Below, in pieces: positions 1 through 54,915 of a stretch of 64,000 nucleotides of DNA. Below the pieces are notes generated by a model. The model was given only the letters and a program-made list of their open reading frames with translations. It did not search any database and was not told the DNA's origin. This DNA comes from a virus (taxonomy: Duplodnaviria > Caudoviricetes). The first letter of the stretch is position 1. Each line of letters begins with the position of its first letter. The stretch is taken from positions 29,417 through 93,416 of IMG/VR virus record IMGVR_UViG_3300032305_002044; one strand, given 5' to 3'. A program made the position numbers and the translations under genes.

Positions 1-292
1 CTGTAACCATAGACATTGGTTTAGGAGGTGGGATACGTCTAGTTTTACGAATAGCACGCCTGTCGCTATCTACGGTACCTCCCCAAATTCCTGTGACATC
101 GTTGTATAGTGCGTATTGCAGGCACTCAATGTTAAACGGACAGGAGTTGCAAATAGACTTTGCTTGTTCTACACATAGGCTATATTGGCGTTTGTCTTCT
201 GAATTAGGTCTTGTAGGCAGCTCGGGAAAAAATACTTCGGGGTCAATTTTCATACAAGGTTGAGTTCCGTCAAAATACGGGGCAGTAGCCAT
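1..292 (-). CDS. whiB: WhiB-family Fe-S transcription factor (3' end runs off the window)
   Basis: Not in the ORF track. Manual translation: MATAPYFDGTQPCMKIDPEVFFPE...AKSICNSCPFNIECLQYALYNDVTGIWGGTVDSDRRAIRK, with 4 conserved Cys, FFP and the GIWGG turn. GGAG RBS upstream. Confidence 0.92.
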   Translation of the reverse strand, partial: MATAPYFDGTQPCMKIDPEVFFPELPTRPNSEDKRQYSLCVEQAKSICNSCPFNIECLQYALYNDVTGIWGGTVDSDRRAIRKTRRIPPPKPMSMVT

Positions 293-8746: not shown

Positions 8747-8757
8747 TAAGACCCCTT

Positions 8758-8789
8758 GAGGGGGGCCTTCGGGCCCCCCTCATTCTTTT
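8758..8789 (+). terminator. intrinsic terminator after MCP
   Basis: GAGGGGGGCC-TTCG-GGCCCCCCTC-ATTCTTTT. Confidence 0.85.
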
Positions 8790-9297: not shown

Positions 9298-10875
9298 GTG
9301 GCAGTCCTTTCTGACCTATTGTCTAAAGTTCGCCTAGAACTTGGGGATAACGCAACTCAGTTCACCACTAACTTAACTGGTACTGGCTCCATTAAAGATT
9401 TTTATTTAGACGTTAAACCTGTAGATGCTACTTATCTTGTAGTTACTGTAAATGGCGTAGCTCAAGCTAACCCTACAAATTTCACAGTTGAAGAAAACCT
9501 TGGTGTTATTCACTTTAATTCGGCTTCAACAACCAAAACGGGCTCTGGTGGCGGAGCGGGAACTAGCAGCTTTACGGTAAACAATACAACAGGAATTGTT
9601 GTAGGTATGTCAATAACAGGCACGGGTATTGCTACAACCGCCATGGTTTCTTCTATTACAGGCTCTACTATAGTAAACGTATCTGTGGTTAATACTGGAG
9701 CGGTTTCTGGCACTGTTACATTTACTCAAATTCCAAAAAATGGGGCTCCAATCGTAGTCTCAGGAGTTCATTACCGATACTTTACTAGTGCTGAGCTTAC
9801 TACGTTCCTCAATACAGCCGTTCTGCAGCACACAGACAACCGTACAGACTCTTATGGTAGTAATATTACTATTGCTTCTATTCCTCCCGTAGAAGAGTAC
9901 CCAGTGGCTATTTTGGCTACTGTAGAGGCTCTATGGGCACTTGCTACAGATGCAGCGTTTGACATTAATATTACTGCCCCTGATGGCGTTGTAATCCCCC
10001 GTAATCAGCGTTTTGCCCAATTGTCCATGATCATTCAAGCTCGTAAAGAACAATATCGTGAGCTTTGCGCTGCTCTTAATGTGGGCCTATGGCGTATTGA
10101 AATGGGTATTTTACGCCGCATTTCTCGCACTACTAATAAATTAGTGCCTGTTTATATGCCTCAAGAAATTGATGATAGGACTAAACCAGAACGCGTTTAC
10201 ATTGAAAACAACATGAAGGGGCGTACACCGCCTCCGAGCAATGTTGGCGTTTACGATATTATTCTTACTCAAGGTGATACTTGGAGTACTACTTTTGACT
10301 TCCCACTTAATCTTACTGATTATCTTGTTAAAGCTCAAATACGCACCTATCCAGAATCGCCAGTTCTTTCCGCAGAATTTACTGTTACAACTGTTACCGC
10401 AACAACTGGCGTAGTTACTTTAAGCTTAACCTCAGATCAAACCGAAGACTTACCGCTTAAATCTTTTTGGGATGTTCAAGTTTATAAAGCTGATGGGTCG
10501 TTTAACCAAACTTATGTAAGAGGTTTAGTATTTGCTAACCGCGCAGTTACAGATGAAAACAATGTTGTAAGTACTCCATTAGCTGCTCCTACGTTTATTG
10601 CATCCACCCCACCTGCGGGTACTCGCACTGTAGCGTACTCATATCAATTCCTTGCTACTGGTCCTGATCCTCTATTTTATGTTCAAACAGGTACATTACC
10701 AACAGGTTTAAGCCTGGGTAGTACGGGTCTCTTAAGTGGTATACCTACTACGGCAGGTACGTATAACTTTACAATTCGTGTATATAACTCAGGTTTAGTG
10801 TTTACCACTGCACAATCAACTTTGCCATTAAGTACTTTATTTACTGATTTAGCAGTTTCTGTGGTGATTAGTTAA
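9298..10875 (+). CDS. head-to-tail adaptor with inserted beta module, BppU-like domain and C-terminal Ig (He_PIG-like) domain
   Basis: N-terminal VRLELGD and YFTSAELTTFL adaptor motifs; QGDTW...KAQIR...GVVTLSL...WDVQV; GTLPTGLSLGSTGLLSGIPTTAGTYNFTI. Confidence 0.7.
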   Translation: MAVLSDLLSKVRLELGDNATQFTTNLTGTGSIKDFYLDVKPVDATYLVVTVNGVAQANPTNFTVEENLGVIHFNSASTTKTGSGGGAGTSSFTVNNTTGIVVGMSITGTGIATTAMVSSITGSTIVNVSVVNTGAVSGTVTFTQIPKNGAPIVVSGVHYRYFTSAELTTFLNTAVLQHTDNRTDSYGSNITIASIPPVEEYPVAILATVEALWALATDAAFDINITAPDGVVIPRNQRFAQLSMIIQARKEQYRELCAALNVGLWRIEMGILRRISRTTNKLVPVYMPQEIDDRTKPERVYIENNMKGRTPPPSNVGVYDIILTQGDTWSTTFDFPLNLTDYLVKAQIRTYPESPVLSAEFTVTTVTATTGVVTLSLTSDQTEDLPLKSFWDVQVYKADGSFNQTYVRGLVFANRAVTDENNVVSTPLAAPTFIASTPPAGTRTVAYSYQFLATGPDPLFYVQTGTLPTGLSLGSTGLLSGIPTTAGTYNFTIRVYNSGLVFTTAQSTLPLSTLFTDLAVSVVIS

Positions 10876-12416
10876 TGAGTGAAGAAATAGTTGTAGTTAC
10901 TCCAATTCCTAGTAGTACCGTAGTTGTAAACCCTCCAACAGGTAGTACTAGTGCTAGCACTGTTGTAGATGTAAATGCCGCTTCTGTTGGTCCACAAGGT
11001 CCTACTGGTCCAACTGGTCCTAAAGGAAATTACACTGTTTCAGAGACCGAACCCGTAAACCCAATAGTTGGTGACACTTGGTTTAAATCTTCTACTGCTC
11101 AAATGTATTTAAGATACGATGGTTACTGGGTAGAGACTTCTACAAGTTATTTAGGTCCTGACCAAAAAGCAGCTAAAGTTCTTTATGTGGATACGGATGG
11201 TAGTGACAGTAATGATGGAAAATCTGTCGGTAAAGCAAAACGTACTATTAAATCTGCCTTAGATTACGTAGCTTCGTTAGGTGTTGCAGGTAAAAACTAT
11301 ACTGTCTTTATTAAAAGTGGAGACTATACAGAAATTAACCCAATAACTATTCCAGAAAAAGTTGCACTTGTTGGAGATAGTTTACGAACCGTAACTATTA
11401 GACCACAATACCCTGATAGGGACATTTTTTATGTAAGTGATGGATGTTACATAACTGAGGTAACTTTTAGAGACCATGTACAACCTGCAAATCCAAATCC
11501 AAATGCAGATGGAAGTGGCGGAGCAGCAATTGCCTATAAGCCGCATGTTGGAGACCTTAGCCTCAGACCAGAAATTAGGCAAAGTCCTTATGTTTACAAC
11601 TGCTCATCTATTACAACTACTGGTACAGGTATGCGTATTGATGGAAACCACGTTGGTGGCGGAAAGTCTATGCTTGCTGCTCAATACACTCAAATTAACC
11701 AAAATGGAAAAGGCATACATATTCTAAATAAAGGATATGCGCAGTTAATTGGAATTTACACCATTTGCTGTGATATTGGAATTCTTTGTGAGAGTGGTGG
11801 ATTCTGCTCCCTTATTGGTTCTGACACTAGCTTTGGTAACATAGGTCTTAAAGCATCTGGTGTAAGTAATATTCTTTACACAGGAACAGCTCCTGCAGTT
11901 AGTGTAAACGCCACTAGTGTAACTATTACAAATATTAGAAATTCTGATACAAACGCTCTTCAAATTCCTTATGCTAACAACGTAGTATCTTTTGAGGAAC
12001 CTCGTAGTCCTGATACCCGTAAGTTTTACACAATTAAAAAAATAGAAAATGCGTCAGCAGGGACAGCAAAACTAACTTTTGCTGAAAGAATATCAACTCC
12101 AGTTGCAGCAAGTGCAACCGCATATTTCTATCAATCAAGTAGAATTACGGCTGCTGGTCATACTTTTGAGTACGCTGGCTCAGGAGTCAATTTAACAACA
12201 GCACTTCCTCAGGCAGGTGGAATTCCAAATCAAGAGCTTGAAATTAAAGAAGAATACGGCGGTCAAGTTTACCGAACTAGTACAGACCAACTTGGTGACT
12301 TTAGAATTGGAAATGATCTAGTAATTAACCGAGGCACTGGAGACATTACTGGAGTTGCCTTTGATAGAAGTTTGTTTGCCGTTCTTACCCCTTACATCTT
12401 AGCGCTTGAGAGTTAA
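10875..12416 (+). CDS. fibre/structural protein with collagen-like segment and beta-helix domain
   Basis: GPQGPTGPTGPKG; YVDTDGSDSNDGKS...RTIKSA...VFIKSGDY..GDSLR, a pectin-lyase-like start. Confidence 0.7.
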   Translation: MSEEIVVVTPIPSSTVVVNPPTGSTSASTVVDVNAASVGPQGPTGPTGPKGNYTVSETEPVNPIVGDTWFKSSTAQMYLRYDGYWVETSTSYLGPDQKAAKVLYVDTDGSDSNDGKSVGKAKRTIKSALDYVASLGVAGKNYTVFIKSGDYTEINPITIPEKVALVGDSLRTVTIRPQYPDRDIFYVSDGCYITEVTFRDHVQPANPNPNADGSGGAAIAYKPHVGDLSLRPEIRQSPYVYNCSSITTTGTGMRIDGNHVGGGKSMLAAQYTQINQNGKGIHILNKGYAQLIGIYTICCDIGILCESGGFCSLIGSDTSFGNIGLKASGVSNILYTGTAPAVSVNATSVTITNIRNSDTNALQIPYANNVVSFEEPRSPDTRKFYTIKKIENASAGTAKLTFAERISTPVAASATAYFYQSSRITAAGHTFEYAGSGVNLTTALPQAGGIPNQELEIKEEYGGQVYRTSTDQLGDFRIGNDLVINRGTGDITGVAFDRSLFAVLTPYILALES

Positions 12417-12718
12417 TGATGAAAAAATTTGACCCAGCAACTATGCCAGAAACTACTTCACCCACTGTAAGGGCGCTTAGAACTTTTGTTGAACGATCTA
12501 TTGAAAATGAAATAGATAAAATTACTTTACTTTACGGGGACAAAACAGCAGAGATTGTAGAAAAATCTTTACGTGCAGTTACTTTTCAAATCTTTCACAA
12601 AAATCCAAAAGTACATACTGAAGCTATAGAAGACCCTTGTGCTTTTGATGATGCAATTAAAAAACTGTTTAACATTACTCCAGATGAGTTTTTAATAGAC
12701 CTAGATGTTAAGGAATAA
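12416..12718 (+). CDS. stand-alone glutamyl-tRNA reductase (HemA) dimerisation-domain-like protein
   Basis: PTVRALR..VERSIENEIDK...EIVEKSLRAVTFQIFH.P....AFDDAIKKLFNI follows the GlutR_dimer pattern P.I.ALR....E.E...L..L..KLLH.P......AL..LF.L. Confidence 0.55.
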   Translation: MMKKFDPATMPETTSPTVRALRTFVERSIENEIDKITLLYGDKTAEIVEKSLRAVTFQIFHKNPKVHTEAIEDPCAFDDAIKKLFNITPDEFLIDLDVKE

Positions 12719-12720
12719 CT

Positions 12721-13074
12721 ATGGCACTAAATACATTTAAGACTAGAACTTTGGCACTATCAACGACTTCTACACTAGTGTACACTGCTCCTGAAAACTA
12801 CACTTCCATTATTATTATGGCGCAGGTTAGCAACGTAAACGTATCTGGCTCTGCAGTTAGCGTAACTGTATCTCACCGTAACGTTTCAGATGACCTTGTG
12901 CCTGTTACAACTGACACTCAGTTGGTACAAGGTTTTAGCATTCCAGTAAATGACTCGGCATCTGTAATAACAGGTAAATTAGTATTAGAACAAAAACAAT
13001 CTGTGGTGGCCTCAGCAAGCGCAACTAATTCTGCAAAAATAATCCTTAGCATATTGGAGACCTTGAATGGCTAG
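12721..13074 (+). CDS. small beta-rich virion protein
   Basis: MALNTFKT...VYTAP...AQVSN...GKLVLE...LSILE pattern resembles small myovirus structural proteins. Confidence 0.65.
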   Translation: MALNTFKTRTLALSTTSTLVYTAPENYTSIIIMAQVSNVNVSGSAVSVTVSHRNVSDDLVPVTTDTQLVQGFSIPVNDSASVITGKLVLEQKQSVVASASATNSAKIILSILETLNG

Positions 13075-14860
13075 TCTTCTATCGGGAAAGATTGTTACGC
13101 CTGGCAAAGTTGCTAATAGTGCTACTACAGCTACAAGTGCAAACACTGCTTCCGCAATCGTTGCTCGGGATGCGTCAGGCAATTTTAGCGCTGGCGCAGT
13201 TACTGTTTCCTCTATTATTGGTGGTACAACAGCAACGGCATTTGCTACTACAGAAAATTTAAGTATTGGTAGAACTTCTGGTTACGATTCCCGCGGTTAT
13301 ATTACTAATAATGTTATGAGTGGTGGCAATCAAATTGATACTTACATTACTGATAATTATTCTGTAAGACAGGTACGTGCAAGTGACGAAGAGGATGTTC
13401 TTCTAGAAGTAAACATTGCAGATGGTAGCAGGTATGCAACAGGTAGTGGCATTGCTAGAACTAACGTAAACATTGCAACTGGTGCTTCAGAAGGTGCTGG
13501 CGGAAGCACTATTAAAATTGGTTCATTTAACGGCAATTCAACCACAGATATTCGTGGAACAGTGACTCTACCAAGTACCACTTCAATTGGTAACGTTGAC
13601 TCTACCGAACTTAGTTACCTAAATGGAGTAACTTCTTCAATACAAGCACAGTTAGATAGTAAGACTTCAAATGTAAATCCAGTATATGCATCTCCAGAAT
13701 TTACTGGAACAGTGACTCTACCAAGTACCACCTCAATTGGTAACGTTGATTCTACGGAAATTAGTTATCTAAACGGGGTAACTTCTTCAATACAGACGCA
13801 GTTAAACGCTAAAGCCCCAACTGCTAATCCTACATTTACTGGCACTGTAACCCTTCCAGCTGGAACTATTGTTAATGCTGACATTAAATCAGATGCTGCT
13901 ATTGATTGGACTAAACTAGCAATATCTTCAACTGTTAGTTCTACAGAAATTGGATACGTTGATGGTGTTACATCTGCCATTCAAACACAGTTAAATTCTA
14001 AGGTTTCAAATGTAGACCCAACATTTACAGCAAATGGTTTAACTATTAGTGCAACAGAACTTGGTTATCTTGATGGCTTAGAGAGCAACATTCAAGCACA
14101 GTTAAACTCTAAGGTTTCAAGTGTAAGCCCCACCTTTACGGGAACTGTTGGATTAGGAACATCTGCTGTTTTCTCTGTTGAAGGTTCTAGTAATGACGAT
14201 AATGAAACTACACTTACCGTTGCTAACCCAACTGCAGATAGAACAATTACACTTCCTGACGCTGATGGGATCGTTGCTTTAACTACAAGTCCTGCGTTTA
14301 TAGGTACCCCAACAGCACCAACGGCATCCGCAGGTACAAACACAACACAAATTGCAACTACCGCTTTCGTTCAATCGAATTCAGAAAGATTAGTTGCAAA
14401 ACTTTTATCTGCTACGGCTGCTATTGGAAATACTGAAACAGTAATTCTTAGTTTTACCGCACCTCAAGACAGTATTGCTGTTGGGGATACATTTAGATTT
14501 ACTGGTTTTGCAACTCGCGCTGGTACTGGTAACGTTGCTCCAACATTTCGCATCAGAATAGGTACAGCAACCCTTACTGGTGCGGAGGTTTCTGTTTTAA
14601 CCCCACCAGCCACAGCTACTGTTGCACCATTTAAATTTGAAGCAATAGTTACTTGCCGTAGTATTGTTGGCTCCTCTGCACAAATTGGCGGTGCAGCAAG
14701 TGCGCTTTATTCAACAGGAAGTGGGGGAAATAGTATTACTGCTCCAGTAACTGTAAACACAGGAGTAAATAATCTTATTGAAGCTACAATTGATTCAAAT
14801 AGTGTCAGTGGAAACACTTATAAATTTGAGCACGCTATTCTAGAAAAGTTGCCAGCATAA
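13067..14860 (+). CDS. tail-fibre-like protein with internal repeats
   Basis: ASAIVARDASGNFSAG; four ELxYL/VDGVTSxIQxQL repeats; PTADRTITLPD; SPAFIGTPTAPT...NTTQIATTAFV. Confidence 0.8.
   Translation: MASLLSGKIVTPGKVANSATTATSANTASAIVARDASGNFSAGAVTVSSIIGGTTATAFATTENLSIGRTSGYDSRGYITNNVMSGGNQIDTYITDNYSVRQVRASDEEDVLLEVNIADGSRYATGSGIARTNVNIATGASEGAGGSTIKIGSFNGNSTTDIRGTVTLPSTTSIGNVDSTELSYLNGVTSSIQAQLDSKTSNVNPVYASPEFTGTVTLPSTTSIGNVDSTEISYLNGVTSSIQTQLNAKAPTANPTFTGTVTLPAGTIVNADIKSDAAIDWTKLAISSTVSSTEIGYVDGVTSAIQTQLNSKVSNVDPTFTANGLTISATELGYLDGLESNIQAQLNSKVSSVSPTFTGTVGLGTSAVFSVEGSSNDDNETTLTVANPTADRTITLPDADGIVALTTSPAFIGTPTAPTASAGTNTTQIATTAFVQSNSERLVAKLLSATAAIGNTETVILSFTAPQDSIAVGDTFRFTGFATRAGTGNVAPTFRIRIGTATLTGAEVSVLTPPATATVAPFKFEAIVTCRSIVGSSAQIGGAASALYSTGSGGNSITAPVTVNTGVNNLIEATIDSNSVSGNTYKFEHAILEKLPA
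13555..13810 (+). repeat. near-identical ~105-bp direct repeat, period 150 bp
   Basis: ggaacagtgactctaccaagtaccac[t/c]tcaattggtaacgttga... occurs at ~13556 and ~13706. Confidence 0.85.
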
Positions 14861-14980: not shown

Positions 14981-15328
14981 ATGCCAGCGATTGATTTTCC
15001 AAATTCACCTCAGGTAAACAGCACGTTTACTGTAGGCGAGCGTACCTGGAAATGGACTGGTACCACTTGGGATGTAGTTGTAGTAACCCAGATTACGGGA
15101 CCTACGGGACCTACGGGACCTCAAGGTGCTTCTGGTGGATCATTTGTATTTACCCAAGCTTCCCCAGCTAGCACTTGGACTATTGCTCATAACCTTGGGT
15201 ACAGACCAAACATATCTGTTGTTGATTCCGCTGGTTCTCAGGTAGAGGGAAACACCGTTTGGACTGACAACAATAACTTAACTATCACTTTTAGTGGCGC
15301 TTTTAGCGGCGTAGCGTACCTATCGTAG
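14981..15328 (+). CDS. small fibre-associated protein with collagen-like repeat
   Basis: IDFPNSP..WKWTGTTW; GPTGPTGPQG; WTIAHNLG..P..SVVD. Confidence 0.75.
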   Translation: MPAIDFPNSPQVNSTFTVGERTWKWTGTTWDVVVVTQITGPTGPTGPQGASGGSFVFTQASPASTWTIAHNLGYRPNISVVDSAGSQVEGNTVWTDNNNLTITFSGAFSGVAYLS

Positions 15329-54291: not shown

Positions 54292-54613
54292 AGGGCAAAA
54301 GCAGTCTAAGAAGCACGAGAACAGACTAGCTAAAGCAGTTGGCGGTAGTACCGTAGCTGCTAGTGGAGCCTTTTGGAGCCGCAAGGGTGATGTCAGGTCT
54401 AGTGATCTACTTATTGAACATAAGTGGACAGGCAAGCAACAGGTAACCGTTAAAGCGGGGGTCCTGGAAAAGATCGTTAAGGAAGCTATCCTTGACGGTA
54501 GGATGCCTGTCCTAGGTTTCCATCTTAATGGCGAGAATTACGTCATGCTAGATGAAAACGATTTCCTGGAGCTTCGCCAAAAGCTCCAGGAGTGTTCGTG
54601 CGAGACCCCTTAG
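54281..54613 (+). CDS. PD-(D/E)XK Holliday-junction-resolvase-like nuclease
   Basis: HE..LAK..GG....SGA....KGDV....LIEHK; GAGG RBS before ATG 54281. Confidence 0.75.
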   Translation: MRSEGQKQSKKHENRLAKAVGGSTVAASGAFWSRKGDVRSSDLLIEHKWTGKQQVTVKAGVLEKIVKEAILDGRMPVLGFHLNGENYVMLDENDFLELRQKLQECSCETP

Positions 54614-54915
54614 ACGTAGAGAACTGGCGTGCAGACGCTAAGTGTAAAGGTATGGATACGGAGCTATGGTTCCCTCCCAGAGAAAAAGAACTTTACAAAT
54701 CTATTGCGGATGTTTCTAAAGGAATATGTTTTGGTAGAGACGGTCGTCCAGAATGCCCTGTTCGTAAAGAGTGCCTGATGTACTCAGAAACTATGAACGA
54801 GCAGTATGGTATCTGGGGCGGCTTAAGTCATAGAGAAAGAAATGCGTTAAAGCGTAAGGCTGAACGTAACGGAATGACCCTAAAAGAATGGGTAGAAAGC
54901 GGTAGAAAAAAATGA
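54592..54915 (+). CDS. whiB: WhiB-family transcription factor
   Basis: WR.DAKC....ELWFP...C.G......CPVRKEC.......YGIWGG.S..ER. Confidence 0.92.
   Translation: MFVRDPLDVENWRADAKCKGMDTELWFPPREKELYKSIADVSKGICFGRDGRPECPVRKECLMYSETMNEQYGIWGGLSHRERNALKRKAERNGMTLKEWVESGRKK

What the first reader, a model, noticed from the sequence alone, without database searches (positions are those of the whole stretch)
12416..12718. Free-standing HemA (GluTR) dimerisation-domain mimic among virion genes
Seen: a 100-aa helical ORF, compositionally unlike the Thr/Ser/Gly-rich fibre genes around it. Its pattern PTVRALR...E.EIDK...EIVEKSLRAV..QIFH.P...AFDDAIKKLFNI matches the C-terminal dimerisation domain of actinobacterial glutamyl-tRNA reductase. 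No catalytic or NADPH domain is present. Established: GluTR is a dimer via this domain and diverts Glu-tRNA(Glu) into tetrapyrrole synthesis. Inference: a dominant-negative heterodimeriser expressed late could spare Glu-tRNA for phage translation or cut haem synthesis. Alternatively it is a captured host domain reused as a fibre chaperone.
Basis: partly seen in the sequence, partly recalled or inferred. Interest (0 to 1): 0.75.

Follow-up and report, generated by a model that had tools for sequence, protein, structure and literature searches.

The report
Phage copy of HemA pairing domain
An uncultured freshwater phage of actinobacteria keeps, inside its tail-fibre operon, a 100-residue gene that is only the pairing (dimerisation) end of the bacterial enzyme that starts heme synthesis; it cannot be an enzyme, and whether it latches onto the host enzyme or has been re-used in virion assembly is untested.

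Summary
Window 12416-12718 (+) encodes a 100-aa helical protein that is a true homologue of the C-terminal dimerisation domain (DD) of glutamyl-tRNA reductase (GluTR/HemA).

- **Homology:** alone it scores 22.7 bits against Pfam GlutR_dimer (cut-off 22.9). A profile of its 22-member family hits the last ~85 residues of full-length actinobacterial GluTRs at E 4.9e-10 among 1.8 billion proteins. It is 37% identical to the best one.
- **No enzyme parts:** no catalytic or NADPH domain exists anywhere in the 93-kb phage.
- **Host group:** the phage is an actinophage, with two WhiB genes and a capsid protein 70-73% identical to Streptomyces myophages.
- **Selection and context:** dN/dS is 0.2-0.3. 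The gene has no promoter or terminator of its own and is translationally coupled. In all six related loci it lies next to a beta-helix fibre gene, a small jelly-roll structural gene, or both.
- **Second family:** another phage DD-only family lies in a replication-type region instead.
- **Donor clade:** the closest cellular GluTRs come from heme-making members of a streamlined freshwater order in which most sampled genomes gave no GluTR-type match.

The mechanism is unresolved: host-GluTR-directed pairing or decoy (about 0.4) versus a virion-assembly role (about 0.35). This scan has noted stand-alone GluTR DDs in at least 10 other phage genomes. I found no paper describing them.

The parts
12416..12718 (+). 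Free-standing GluTR (HemA) C-terminal dimerisation-domain gene, 100 aa (P0001). The first ATG overlaps the upstream stop codon (TAATG). The probable homologous start is the second ATG at 12419. Residues 13-86 match Pfam GlutR_dimer positions 21-98 of 99. The conserved N-terminal extension MKKFDPxxMP and the disordered acidic tail (residues 92-100) lie outside the homologous core.
10875..12416 (+). Upstream fibre/spike gene w513, with a collagen-like GPQGPTGPTGPKG stretch and PHROG tail-fibre and baseplate-wedge matches. It is conserved directly upstream of the DD gene in L003, L011 and L014. Its last codons carry the GAGAG Shine-Dalgarno-like site (12408-12412) for the DD gene.
12721..13074 (+). 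Downstream gene w117 (phrog_1276), an eight-stranded jelly-roll virion protein. Its best structural match is the trimeric cement protein of Helicobacter phage KHP40. It is conserved directly downstream in L002, L003, L011, L012 and L013. Its Shine-Dalgarno site AAGGA (12710-12714) lies in the last codons of the DD gene.
13067..14860 (+). Next fibre gene, w597. Only its N-terminal ~46 residues are conserved in relatives, and the rest is variable (a 1078+ aa fibre takes its place in L003).
8757..8782 (+). Strong terminator-like hairpin (11 pairs, 9 G-C, then a T-run) after the major capsid gene. It marks the start of the fibre operon that contains the DD gene. No promoter-like or terminator-like site brackets the DD gene itself.

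Best explanation
The gene encodes a host-derived 'microprotein': only the three-helix pairing domain of actinobacterial glutamyl-tRNA reductase. It was captured once by the ancestor of this freshwater actinophage lineage and has been kept under purifying selection since. It has no catalytic or NADPH domain, so it can only act by binding. The most likely mode is through the ancestral helical-bundle surface. Either it pairs with a host GluTR monomer, giving a one-armed enzyme that cannot form the V-shaped dimer into which GSA aminomutase is proposed to dock (recalled, not re-read). Or it competes for a host factor that docks on this domain, as FLU does in plants. Either way it would retune the first committed step of heme synthesis during infection. 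Shown here: homology, domain boundaries, absence of enzyme domains, selection, phage and actinobacterial affiliation, and a second phage family with the same architecture. Inferred: any binding to GluTR, the direction of the effect, and that the host has GluTR at all.
For: Homology to the GluTR DD is specific and covers the whole domain. Predicted-structure neighbours are all GluTRs, mostly Actinomycetota, with TM 0.54-0.62. The isolated DD of a real GluTR is a stable unit that folds on its own, and it is a regulator-docking site (PDB 4YVQ; PMC4726326; profile hit to 4yvq_A). The phage protein begins exactly at the domain boundary and keeps the residues shared by all GluTR DDs: P16, R22, E32, H61, L84 and F85 are invariant across phage and cellular sequences. 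dN/dS is 0.2-0.3. A second phage-borne DD-only family (P0039/P0082) is 43-49% identical to GluTRs of the same bacterial order and lies among small ORFs near RNR, a glycosyltransferase, an HNH endonuclease and DUF932, not near fibres. So the DD-only design recurs independently of a fibre context. The closest cellular DDs belong to heme-prototrophic genomes; G001 has a full hem cluster, and 15 of 201 genomes of that order match. No fusion of this family to fibre proteins exists in 1.8 billion representatives. Phages are known to carry tetrapyrrole genes (vAlaS, PMC11480375). Scan notes report DD-only genes in at least 10 other phage genomes in early or heme-related contexts (unchecked by me).
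Against: No interaction was or could be tested, because no multimer prediction was available. The gene is embedded in the late fibre operon with overlapping or 0-3-nt junctions, no promoter or terminator of its own, and GC3 equal to its neighbours. Late synthesis fits poorly with poisoning pre-formed host dimers. Identity to the best host-type DD is only 29-37%, on a long stem branch. The family has invariant residues of its own (M10, T17, T23, F24, N63, V66, H67, D78) and a conserved N-terminal extension, which suggest a new partner surface. The host is unknown, and most sampled genomes of the order holding the closest GluTRs gave no GluTR-type match (Kim et al. bioRxiv 10.1101/2021.01.11.426183). 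The phage carries no other tetrapyrrole gene detected by three models.
Confidence: 0.4

Rival explanations
1. The captured helical pairing domain has been domesticated for the virion. It would act as a small dimeric helical assembly factor or adaptor for the neighbouring beta-helix fibre (w513) and/or the jelly-roll protein (w117), comparable in role but not ancestry to T4 gp57A. It would no longer have anything to do with heme.
For: The order w513 - DD - w117 holds wherever a flank is available in the six related loci, down to 54-60% identity of the DD protein. The stop-start junctions overlap or are 0-3 nt apart, and each upstream gene's last codons supply the next gene's Shine-Dalgarno site. 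There is no promoter or terminator of its own, and GC3 is 0.188 against 0.204 and 0.194 in the flanking fibre genes. The family has its own invariant residues and a conserved N-terminal extension absent from GluTRs. Both neighbours are structural, and none has a recognisable chaperone fold, so that role is unfilled. Most sampled genomes of the order holding the closest GluTRs gave no GluTR-type match.
Against: There is no similarity to any known fibre chaperone or any PHROG or to viral structures. No fused fibre-DD forms exist anywhere. The cultured Streptomyces relatives, which share a 70-73% identical capsid, build their tails without it. Family 2 has the same architecture in a non-structural region. 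All six syntenic loci belong to one phage lineage, so synteny may be plain vertical inheritance.
Confidence: 0.35
2. It is a homodimeric helical scaffold that has acquired an unrelated new partner, either a host factor other than the GluTR system or another phage protein. It could for example be a packaged or ejected protein acting at the next infection.
For: Family-specific invariant surface residues, a conserved N-terminal MKKFDPxxMP motif and a long stem branch. Location in a structural operon is compatible with packaging.
Against: There is no positive evidence for any particular partner. The explanation is not parsimonious, given the retention of the residues shared with GluTR DDs and the second DD-only phage family.
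Confidence: 0.15
3. It is a decaying relic of a once complete phage-borne hemA gene, or a chance ORF.
For: The single-protein Pfam score is just under the curated cut-off.
Against: dN/dS is 0.2-0.3. There are 24 homologues with 25 invariant positions among the 22 aligned. Length and boundaries are conserved. No flanking GluTR remnants exist.
Confidence: 0.03

Closest known systems
C-terminal dimerisation domain of glutamyl-tRNA reductase (HemA/GtrR; Pfam PF00745; Arabidopsis GluTR1 structures 4N7R, 5CHE; isolated domain 4YVQ)
   Same: Homologous over the whole three-helix domain. It shares the invariant P, R, E, H and LF positions. The predicted fold resembles GluTR C-termini. The isolated plant domain is known to fold on its own and to be a protein-docking site.
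   Different: It is free-standing (100 aa) with no spinal helix, catalytic domain or NADPH domain. It is phage-encoded in a fibre operon. It has an SP instead of the DP cap, a one-residue insertion in the FHK(N)P turn, its own invariant residues and an extra conserved N-terminal motif. Identity to the best cellular domain is 29-37%.
Phage tetrapyrrole auxiliary metabolic genes (vAlaS, heme oxygenase, PcyA/PebS; PMC11480375)
   Same: They are phage genes derived from the host tetrapyrrole pathway, presumably tuning heme or bilin metabolism during infection.
   Different: Those are complete, active enzymes. This is a non-catalytic binding domain. No such enzyme gene was found in this phage.
Virus-encoded domain-only decoys or small host-derived regulators, such as poxvirus K3L (eIF2-alpha S1-domain mimic) and cyanophage CP12 (from my own knowledge, not tested here)
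   Same: The concept is the same: a small viral protein that copies one interaction domain or regulator of a host protein and acts purely by binding.
   Different: There is no sequence relationship. The target and effect here are hypothetical.
T4 gp57A-type small helical tail-fibre assembly chaperones (from my own knowledge)
   Same: A small, acidic, all-helical, probably oligomeric protein encoded with fibre genes.
   Different: No homology was detected (no PHROG hit). The ancestry is clearly from GluTR.

Membership tests
Pfam PF00745 GlutR_dimer (homology to the GluTR dimerisation domain) | Score at or above the curated gathering cut-off (22.9 bits) for this protein alone | tested here: not met
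   P0001 scores 22.7 bits, E 1.3e-4, 0.2 bits short, and 22.1 bits in the six-frame search. Five of the 24 homologues carry a precomputed PF00745 hit.
Pfam PF00745 GlutR_dimer (homology to the GluTR dimerisation domain) | Family-level reciprocal profile match to the C-terminal domain of bona fide GluTRs | tested here: met
   PF00745 is the top family for 22 of 22 members, best E 9.1e-6. The A1 profile finds 404-487-aa proteins at their C-terminal 80-90 residues, best E 4.9e-10. Seven full-length hits checked (412-434 aa) carry GlutR_N + Shikimate_DH + GlutR_dimer. BLASTP gives 37% over 81 aa, E 2e-13. PDB hits are 4n7r_A and 4yvq_A.
Pfam PF00745 GlutR_dimer (homology to the GluTR dimerisation domain) | Three-helix fold like the solved domain | tested here: inconclusive
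   AF2 pLDDT is 80 and the model is helical. Foldseek against the PDB gave nothing significant (5che_A at rank 12, TMq 0.45). VIA gave 4yvq_A Z 4.8, rmsd 3.6, 74 residues aligned, 20% identity, tied with generic helical hairpins. ESM Atlas structure rows were 10 of 10 GluTR, TM 0.54-0.62.
Pfam PF00745 GlutR_dimer (homology to the GluTR dimerisation domain) | Forms a dimer through a helical bundle (six-helix in my recollection of the GluTR structures) | not testable with these tools
   No multimer prediction or experiment was available.
Glutamyl-tRNA reductase enzyme (EC 1.2.1.70) | N-terminal catalytic domain (GlutR_N) and NADPH-binding domain | tested here: not met
   The ORF is 100 aa, bounded by a fibre gene and a jelly-roll gene. 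PF05201 and PF01488 give no match at E <= 1 in the whole 93-kb genome.
Tail-fibre assembly chaperones (T4 gp57A, Tfa families) | Sequence or structural similarity to a known chaperone family | tested here: not met
   No PHROG hit at E <= 0.01. No BFVD match.
Tail-fibre assembly chaperones (T4 gp57A, Tfa families) | Small gene co-transcribed and conserved with a fibre gene | tested here: met
   Conserved synteny in six loci and coupled junctions.
Tail-fibre assembly chaperones (T4 gp57A, Tfa families) | Required for fibre folding or assembly | not testable with these tools
   This needs genetics or biochemistry.
Moron / recently acquired auxiliary gene cassette | Own promoter and/or terminator, and composition deviating from neighbours | tested here: not met
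   No bracketing promoter-like or terminator-like sites. GC3 is 0.188 against 0.204 and 0.194 in the flanks. The family forms one clade on a long stem, meaning an old capture.

The most novel reading that the evidence does not exclude
Phages of several lineages carry 'subunit-poison or decoy' microproteins copied from the pairing domain of GluTR, giving them protein-level control over the committed step of heme synthesis. In this actinophage lineage the gene was captured from heme-making members of a streamlined freshwater order (probably non-acI Nanopelagicales) in which most lineages have lost heme synthesis. It is expressed with the tail fibres.
Probability: 0.35. Interest if true: 0.75.

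Novelty: new variant of a known kind. Interest (0 to 1): 0.55.

Why it matters
Phage control of host tetrapyrrole metabolism is so far known only through complete enzymes (ALA synthase, heme oxygenase, bilin reductases). A non-catalytic copy of the GluTR pairing domain would be a different principle: regulation of the rate-limiting, tRNA-consuming first step by subunit capture or decoy. It would also be a ready-made natural tool for probing whether GluTR dimerisation and GluTR-GSAM channelling matter in vivo. The actinophage case adds two twists. The gene sits inside a fibre operon, so it may instead be a rare example of a metabolic-enzyme domain exapted into virion assembly. And its closest cellular relatives lie in an abundant freshwater order where heme auxotrophy is common, so the gene could also help assign hosts. 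No paper describing such proteins was found.

Tried and rejected
- **GenBank phage searches:** megablast of the region and tblastn of P0001, P0082 and an Acidithiobacillia DD against 50,697 phage records gave no match. The cultured Streptomyces relatives therefore lack the gene.
- **Structure searches of the DD model:** Foldseek against the PDB and BFVD gave nothing significant. VIA-wide placed the GluTR DD chains 4yvq_A and 4n7r_A within a crowd of generic helical hairpins, so structure alone does not prove the fold.
- **Search for longer (fused) relatives:** the word-indexed search found none (weak evidence). The exhaustive search found no fused forms except GluTR itself.
- **P0033:** this 2308-aa Burkholderia protein is a summed tandem-repeat artefact, each repeat scoring under 8 bits.
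- **Other short GlutR_dimer hits:** P0040, P0095, P0097, P0098, P0104 and P0110 look like truncated or mis-called real GluTR genes (ordinary LLHTPSVRA motif, tiny contigs, and no viral contigs for the two scanned, P0097 and P0104). I rejected them as additional free-standing families.
- **One or two captures:** the tree is unresolved, and the AU test does not reject a single origin of families 1 and 2 (p 0.425).
- **Broad DD alignment:** A2 was too diverse for a viral-contig pattern scan.
- **Host assignment:** there are no tRNAs in the genome. The tools gave no taxonomy below class for G001. 'Nanopelagicales' is my inference from genome sizes, the GluTR presence/absence pattern and Kim et al.
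- **Other tetrapyrrole genes in the phage:** none found with PF01126, PF11775 or PF00155.
Full report
**What is there.** Window 12416-12718 (+) is an open frame of 100 codons. Its first ATG overlaps the TAA of the upstream 513-aa fibre gene (TAATG). A second ATG at 12419 corresponds to the start used in relatives (MKKFDP...). Its own TAA is followed two bases later by the ATG of a 117-aa gene, whose Shine-Dalgarno site (AAGGA, 12710-12714) lies in the last codons of our gene. The protein is rich in charged residues: 33% D/E/K/R and 14% S/T/G, against 11-17% and 29-37% in the four nearest fibre-module genes. It is predicted to be helical (AF2 with a 22-sequence alignment, mean pLDDT 80; helices 16-40, 42-61, 64-72 and 78-85; the tail 92-100 is disordered).

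**Is it really a GluTR dimerisation domain?** Yes, by sequence.
- Alone, the protein hits only Pfam GlutR_dimer (PF00745): E 1.3e-4, 22.7 bits against a curated cut-off of 22.9. Residues 13-86 align to profile positions 21-98 of 99.
- It has 24 homologues of 91-100 aa in metagenomes, several of which have PF00745 hits on record. I aligned 22 of them (A1), which share 25 invariant positions. PF00745 is the top family for 22 of 22.
- A profile of A1, scored against 1.84 billion representative proteins, finds five short family representatives. After them come proteins of 404-487 aa matched only over their last 80-90 residues, the best at E 4.9e-10.
- Seven full-length hits checked (412-434 aa) carry GlutR_N + Shikimate_DH + GlutR_dimer, so they are complete GluTRs. 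P0001 against the best one (P0030) gives 37% identity over 81 residues, E 2e-13, aligned to residues 329-408 of 412.
- The same profile finds Arabidopsis GluTR1 (4n7r_A) and its isolated dimerisation domain (4yvq_A) in the PDB.
- In a joint alignment, P16, R22, E32, H61, L84 and F85 are invariant across phage and cellular sequences.

Structure comparison is consistent but not decisive. Foldseek found nothing significant. VIA-align put 4yvq_A at Z 4.8 (rmsd 3.6, 74 residues, 20% identity) among many generic hairpins. The ESM Atlas gave 30 of 30 feature neighbours and 10 of 10 structure neighbours as GluTR or GlutR_dimer, mostly Actinomycetota, with TM 0.54-0.62 over residues 11-93. No GlutR_N or NADPH-domain match exists anywhere in the 93,416-bp virus record.

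**"Actinobacterial" is also right.** The named top GluTR hits are Micrococcales bacterium 31B, Propionimicrobium lymphophilum, Aquiluna borgnonia and a Microbacteriaceae MAG. The best hit, P0030, is 87% identical to the GluTR of an Actinomycetes MAG (G001).

**What genome is this?** G000 is an IMG/VR virus record estimated 98% complete. It has terminase, portal, major capsid, tail sheath and baseplate genes, and DnaB, primase, SNF2 helicase, PolA and RecA. It carries two WhiB genes, a hallmark of actinobacterial phages. Its capsid protein is 70-73% identical to those of Streptomyces phages LuckySocke, Alone3, pSt2308, GiJojo and BRock. Those cultured relatives have no counterpart of the gene. 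GC is 43.8% and there are no tRNAs.

**Family anatomy and evolution.**
- The gene order w513 (fibre/beta-helix) - DD - w117 holds wherever a flank is available in the six related loci: the fibre upstream in L003, L011 and L014, and w117 downstream in L002, L003, L011, L012 and L013. This holds even at 54-60% identity of the DD protein, and the junctions are always 0-3 nt.
- Unsaturated pairs give dN/dS of 0.20-0.30.
- No promoter-like or terminator-like site brackets the gene. Its GC3 (0.188) equals that of the flanking fibre genes. It is therefore an old, integrated part of the late operon, not a recent moron.
- In a maximum-likelihood tree of C-terminal domains, family 1 is one clade (100/99) on a long stem (1.41 changes per site), inside an unresolved set of actinobacterial GluTRs.
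- The downstream partner w117 folds as a jelly roll (pLDDT 83). It is most like the trimeric capsid cement protein of Helicobacter phages KHP40 and KHP30 (E 1.3e-4, TMq 0.63). The neighbours are therefore structural proteins.

**A second phage family.** P0039/P0081/P0082 (90-103 aa) have the same design and pass PF00745 (E 1.1e-7). They lie on a viral contig of 36% GC among small ORFs, near a class II RNR, a glycosyltransferase, an HNH-NUMOD4 endonuclease and DUF932. That is a replication or early-type region, not a fibre module. They are 43-49% identical to GluTRs of the G001 order but only 26-40% identical to family 1. The AU test does not reject a single origin (p 0.425). Other short hits are probably truncated real genes.

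**The host question.**
- In the order containing G001, 15 of 201 sampled genomes (1.4-2.2 Mb) match the phage profile. Twelve matches lie in open frames of 415-439 aa, three in frames of 491 or 524 aa, and one in a 174-aa frame. The other 186 genomes have no match; those listed are 1.3-1.5 Mb.
- GlutR_N was not found in any of the 18 nearest small genomes searched, but was found in 10 of 12 more distant genomes searched.
- G001's hemA lies in a full coproporphyrin-type cluster: ferrochelatase, a ChdC-family gene, UroD, and hemA-C-D-B.
- This matches the published picture. In GTDB, acI corresponds to Nanopelagicaceae, which lack heme synthesis, while other Nanopelagicales retain it (Kim et al., bioRxiv 10.1101/2021.01.11.426183; PMC12817590). 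That the order is Nanopelagicales is my inference, because the tools gave no taxonomy below class.
- Across the phylum, 228 of 301 genomes have GlutR_dimer, and 146 of the 150 listed matches lie in open frames of 419-776 aa.
- The tallies include unpublished genomes (G025; G495, G309, G245, G229, G466, G275, G401, G375, G315, G453, G347). Only counts rest on them, and no sequence from them is used.

**How it most likely works.** It cannot be an enzyme. The only known activities of this domain are pairing of GluTR subunits and docking of a regulator (FLU in plants). The isolated plant domain is a stable protein (PMC4726326).

I therefore favour, at about 0.4, a host-GluTR-directed binding role: a subunit poison, or a decoy for a DD-binding factor. 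The evidence for this is the recurrence of DD-only genes in a second phage family outside any fibre context, the absence of fibre-DD fusions, and the affinity to GluTRs of heme-making members of the likely host order.

Against it stand the late, translationally coupled fibre-operon position, the family-specific invariant residues and N-terminal motif, the modest identity to cellular domains, and the unknown host. These features support the main rival, at about 0.35: a captured pairing domain re-used as a fibre or virion assembly factor.

**Relation to earlier scan notes and the literature.** This scan has noted stand-alone GluTR dimerisation domains in at least 10 other phage genomes, including T4-like aquatic phages, a giant lake phage, early operons, and sites next to heme-to-bilin genes. 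I could not verify those. tblastn of three DD types against GenBank phages found nothing. However, the ESM Atlas does show several clusters of 88-99-aa GlutR_dimer-only proteins, one mostly Uroviricota. Full-text searches found no paper on such proteins. The nearest published topic is phage ALA synthase (PMC11480375).

**Verdict.** This is a new variant within phage manipulation of tetrapyrrole metabolism, or alternatively an unusual exaptation. The mechanism is open and can be tested directly.

Noticed in passing
window 12721-13074: The conserved 117-aa gene after the DD gene (phrog_1276, 'unknown function') folds as an eight-stranded jelly roll (pLDDT 83). It is most like the trimeric capsid cement protein of Helicobacter phages KHP40 and KHP30, and like Bacillus Ena endospore-appendage subunits. 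This is a possible functional annotation for that PHROG.
   Followed up: partly
L017:1543-1815 (IMGVR_UViG_3300032319_000532) and L030: A second phage-borne DD-only family (P0039/P0081/P0082, 90-103 aa) lies on a 36%-GC viral contig among small ORFs, near a class II RNR, a glycosyltransferase, an HNH-NUMOD4 endonuclease and DUF932. It is 43-49% identical to GluTRs of the G001 order.
   Followed up: partly
L006 (G001, Actinomycetes MAG GL72_UP) and genomes G002-G228: In the order containing G001, only 15 of 201 sampled genomes have a GluTR-type match, and none of the 18 nearest small genomes searched has GlutR_N. G001 itself has a full coproporphyrin-type heme cluster and a second GlutR_N/GlutR_dimer match on another contig. 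This fits the published heme auxotrophy of acI with retention in sister lineages.
   Followed up: partly
window 54592-54915 and window 50-259 (- strand; G000:C1:29466-29675): There are two WhiB-family genes in the phage (58.7 and 51.9 bits).
   Followed up: no
window 10875-12416 and 14981-15328: Collagen-like GPxGPTGPTGP stretches occur in the N-terminal part of the w513 fibre and in the 115-aa protein. The N-terminal ~46 residues of the next fibre (w597) are conserved in relatives, while the rest is swapped for unrelated fibre sequence.
   Followed up: no
window 8757-8782: A very strong terminator-like hairpin (11 pairs, 9 G-C, then a T-run) lies directly after the major capsid gene.
   Followed up: no
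P0033 (Burkholderia territorii, 2308 aa): A giant protein with about 48-aa tandem repeats (AFDRQAEPQAVANSLNALKTFIEKGVV) reached E 1.4e-6 against the phage-family profile only by summing many weak repeats. This is a false positive worth remembering for profile searches.
   Followed up: yes
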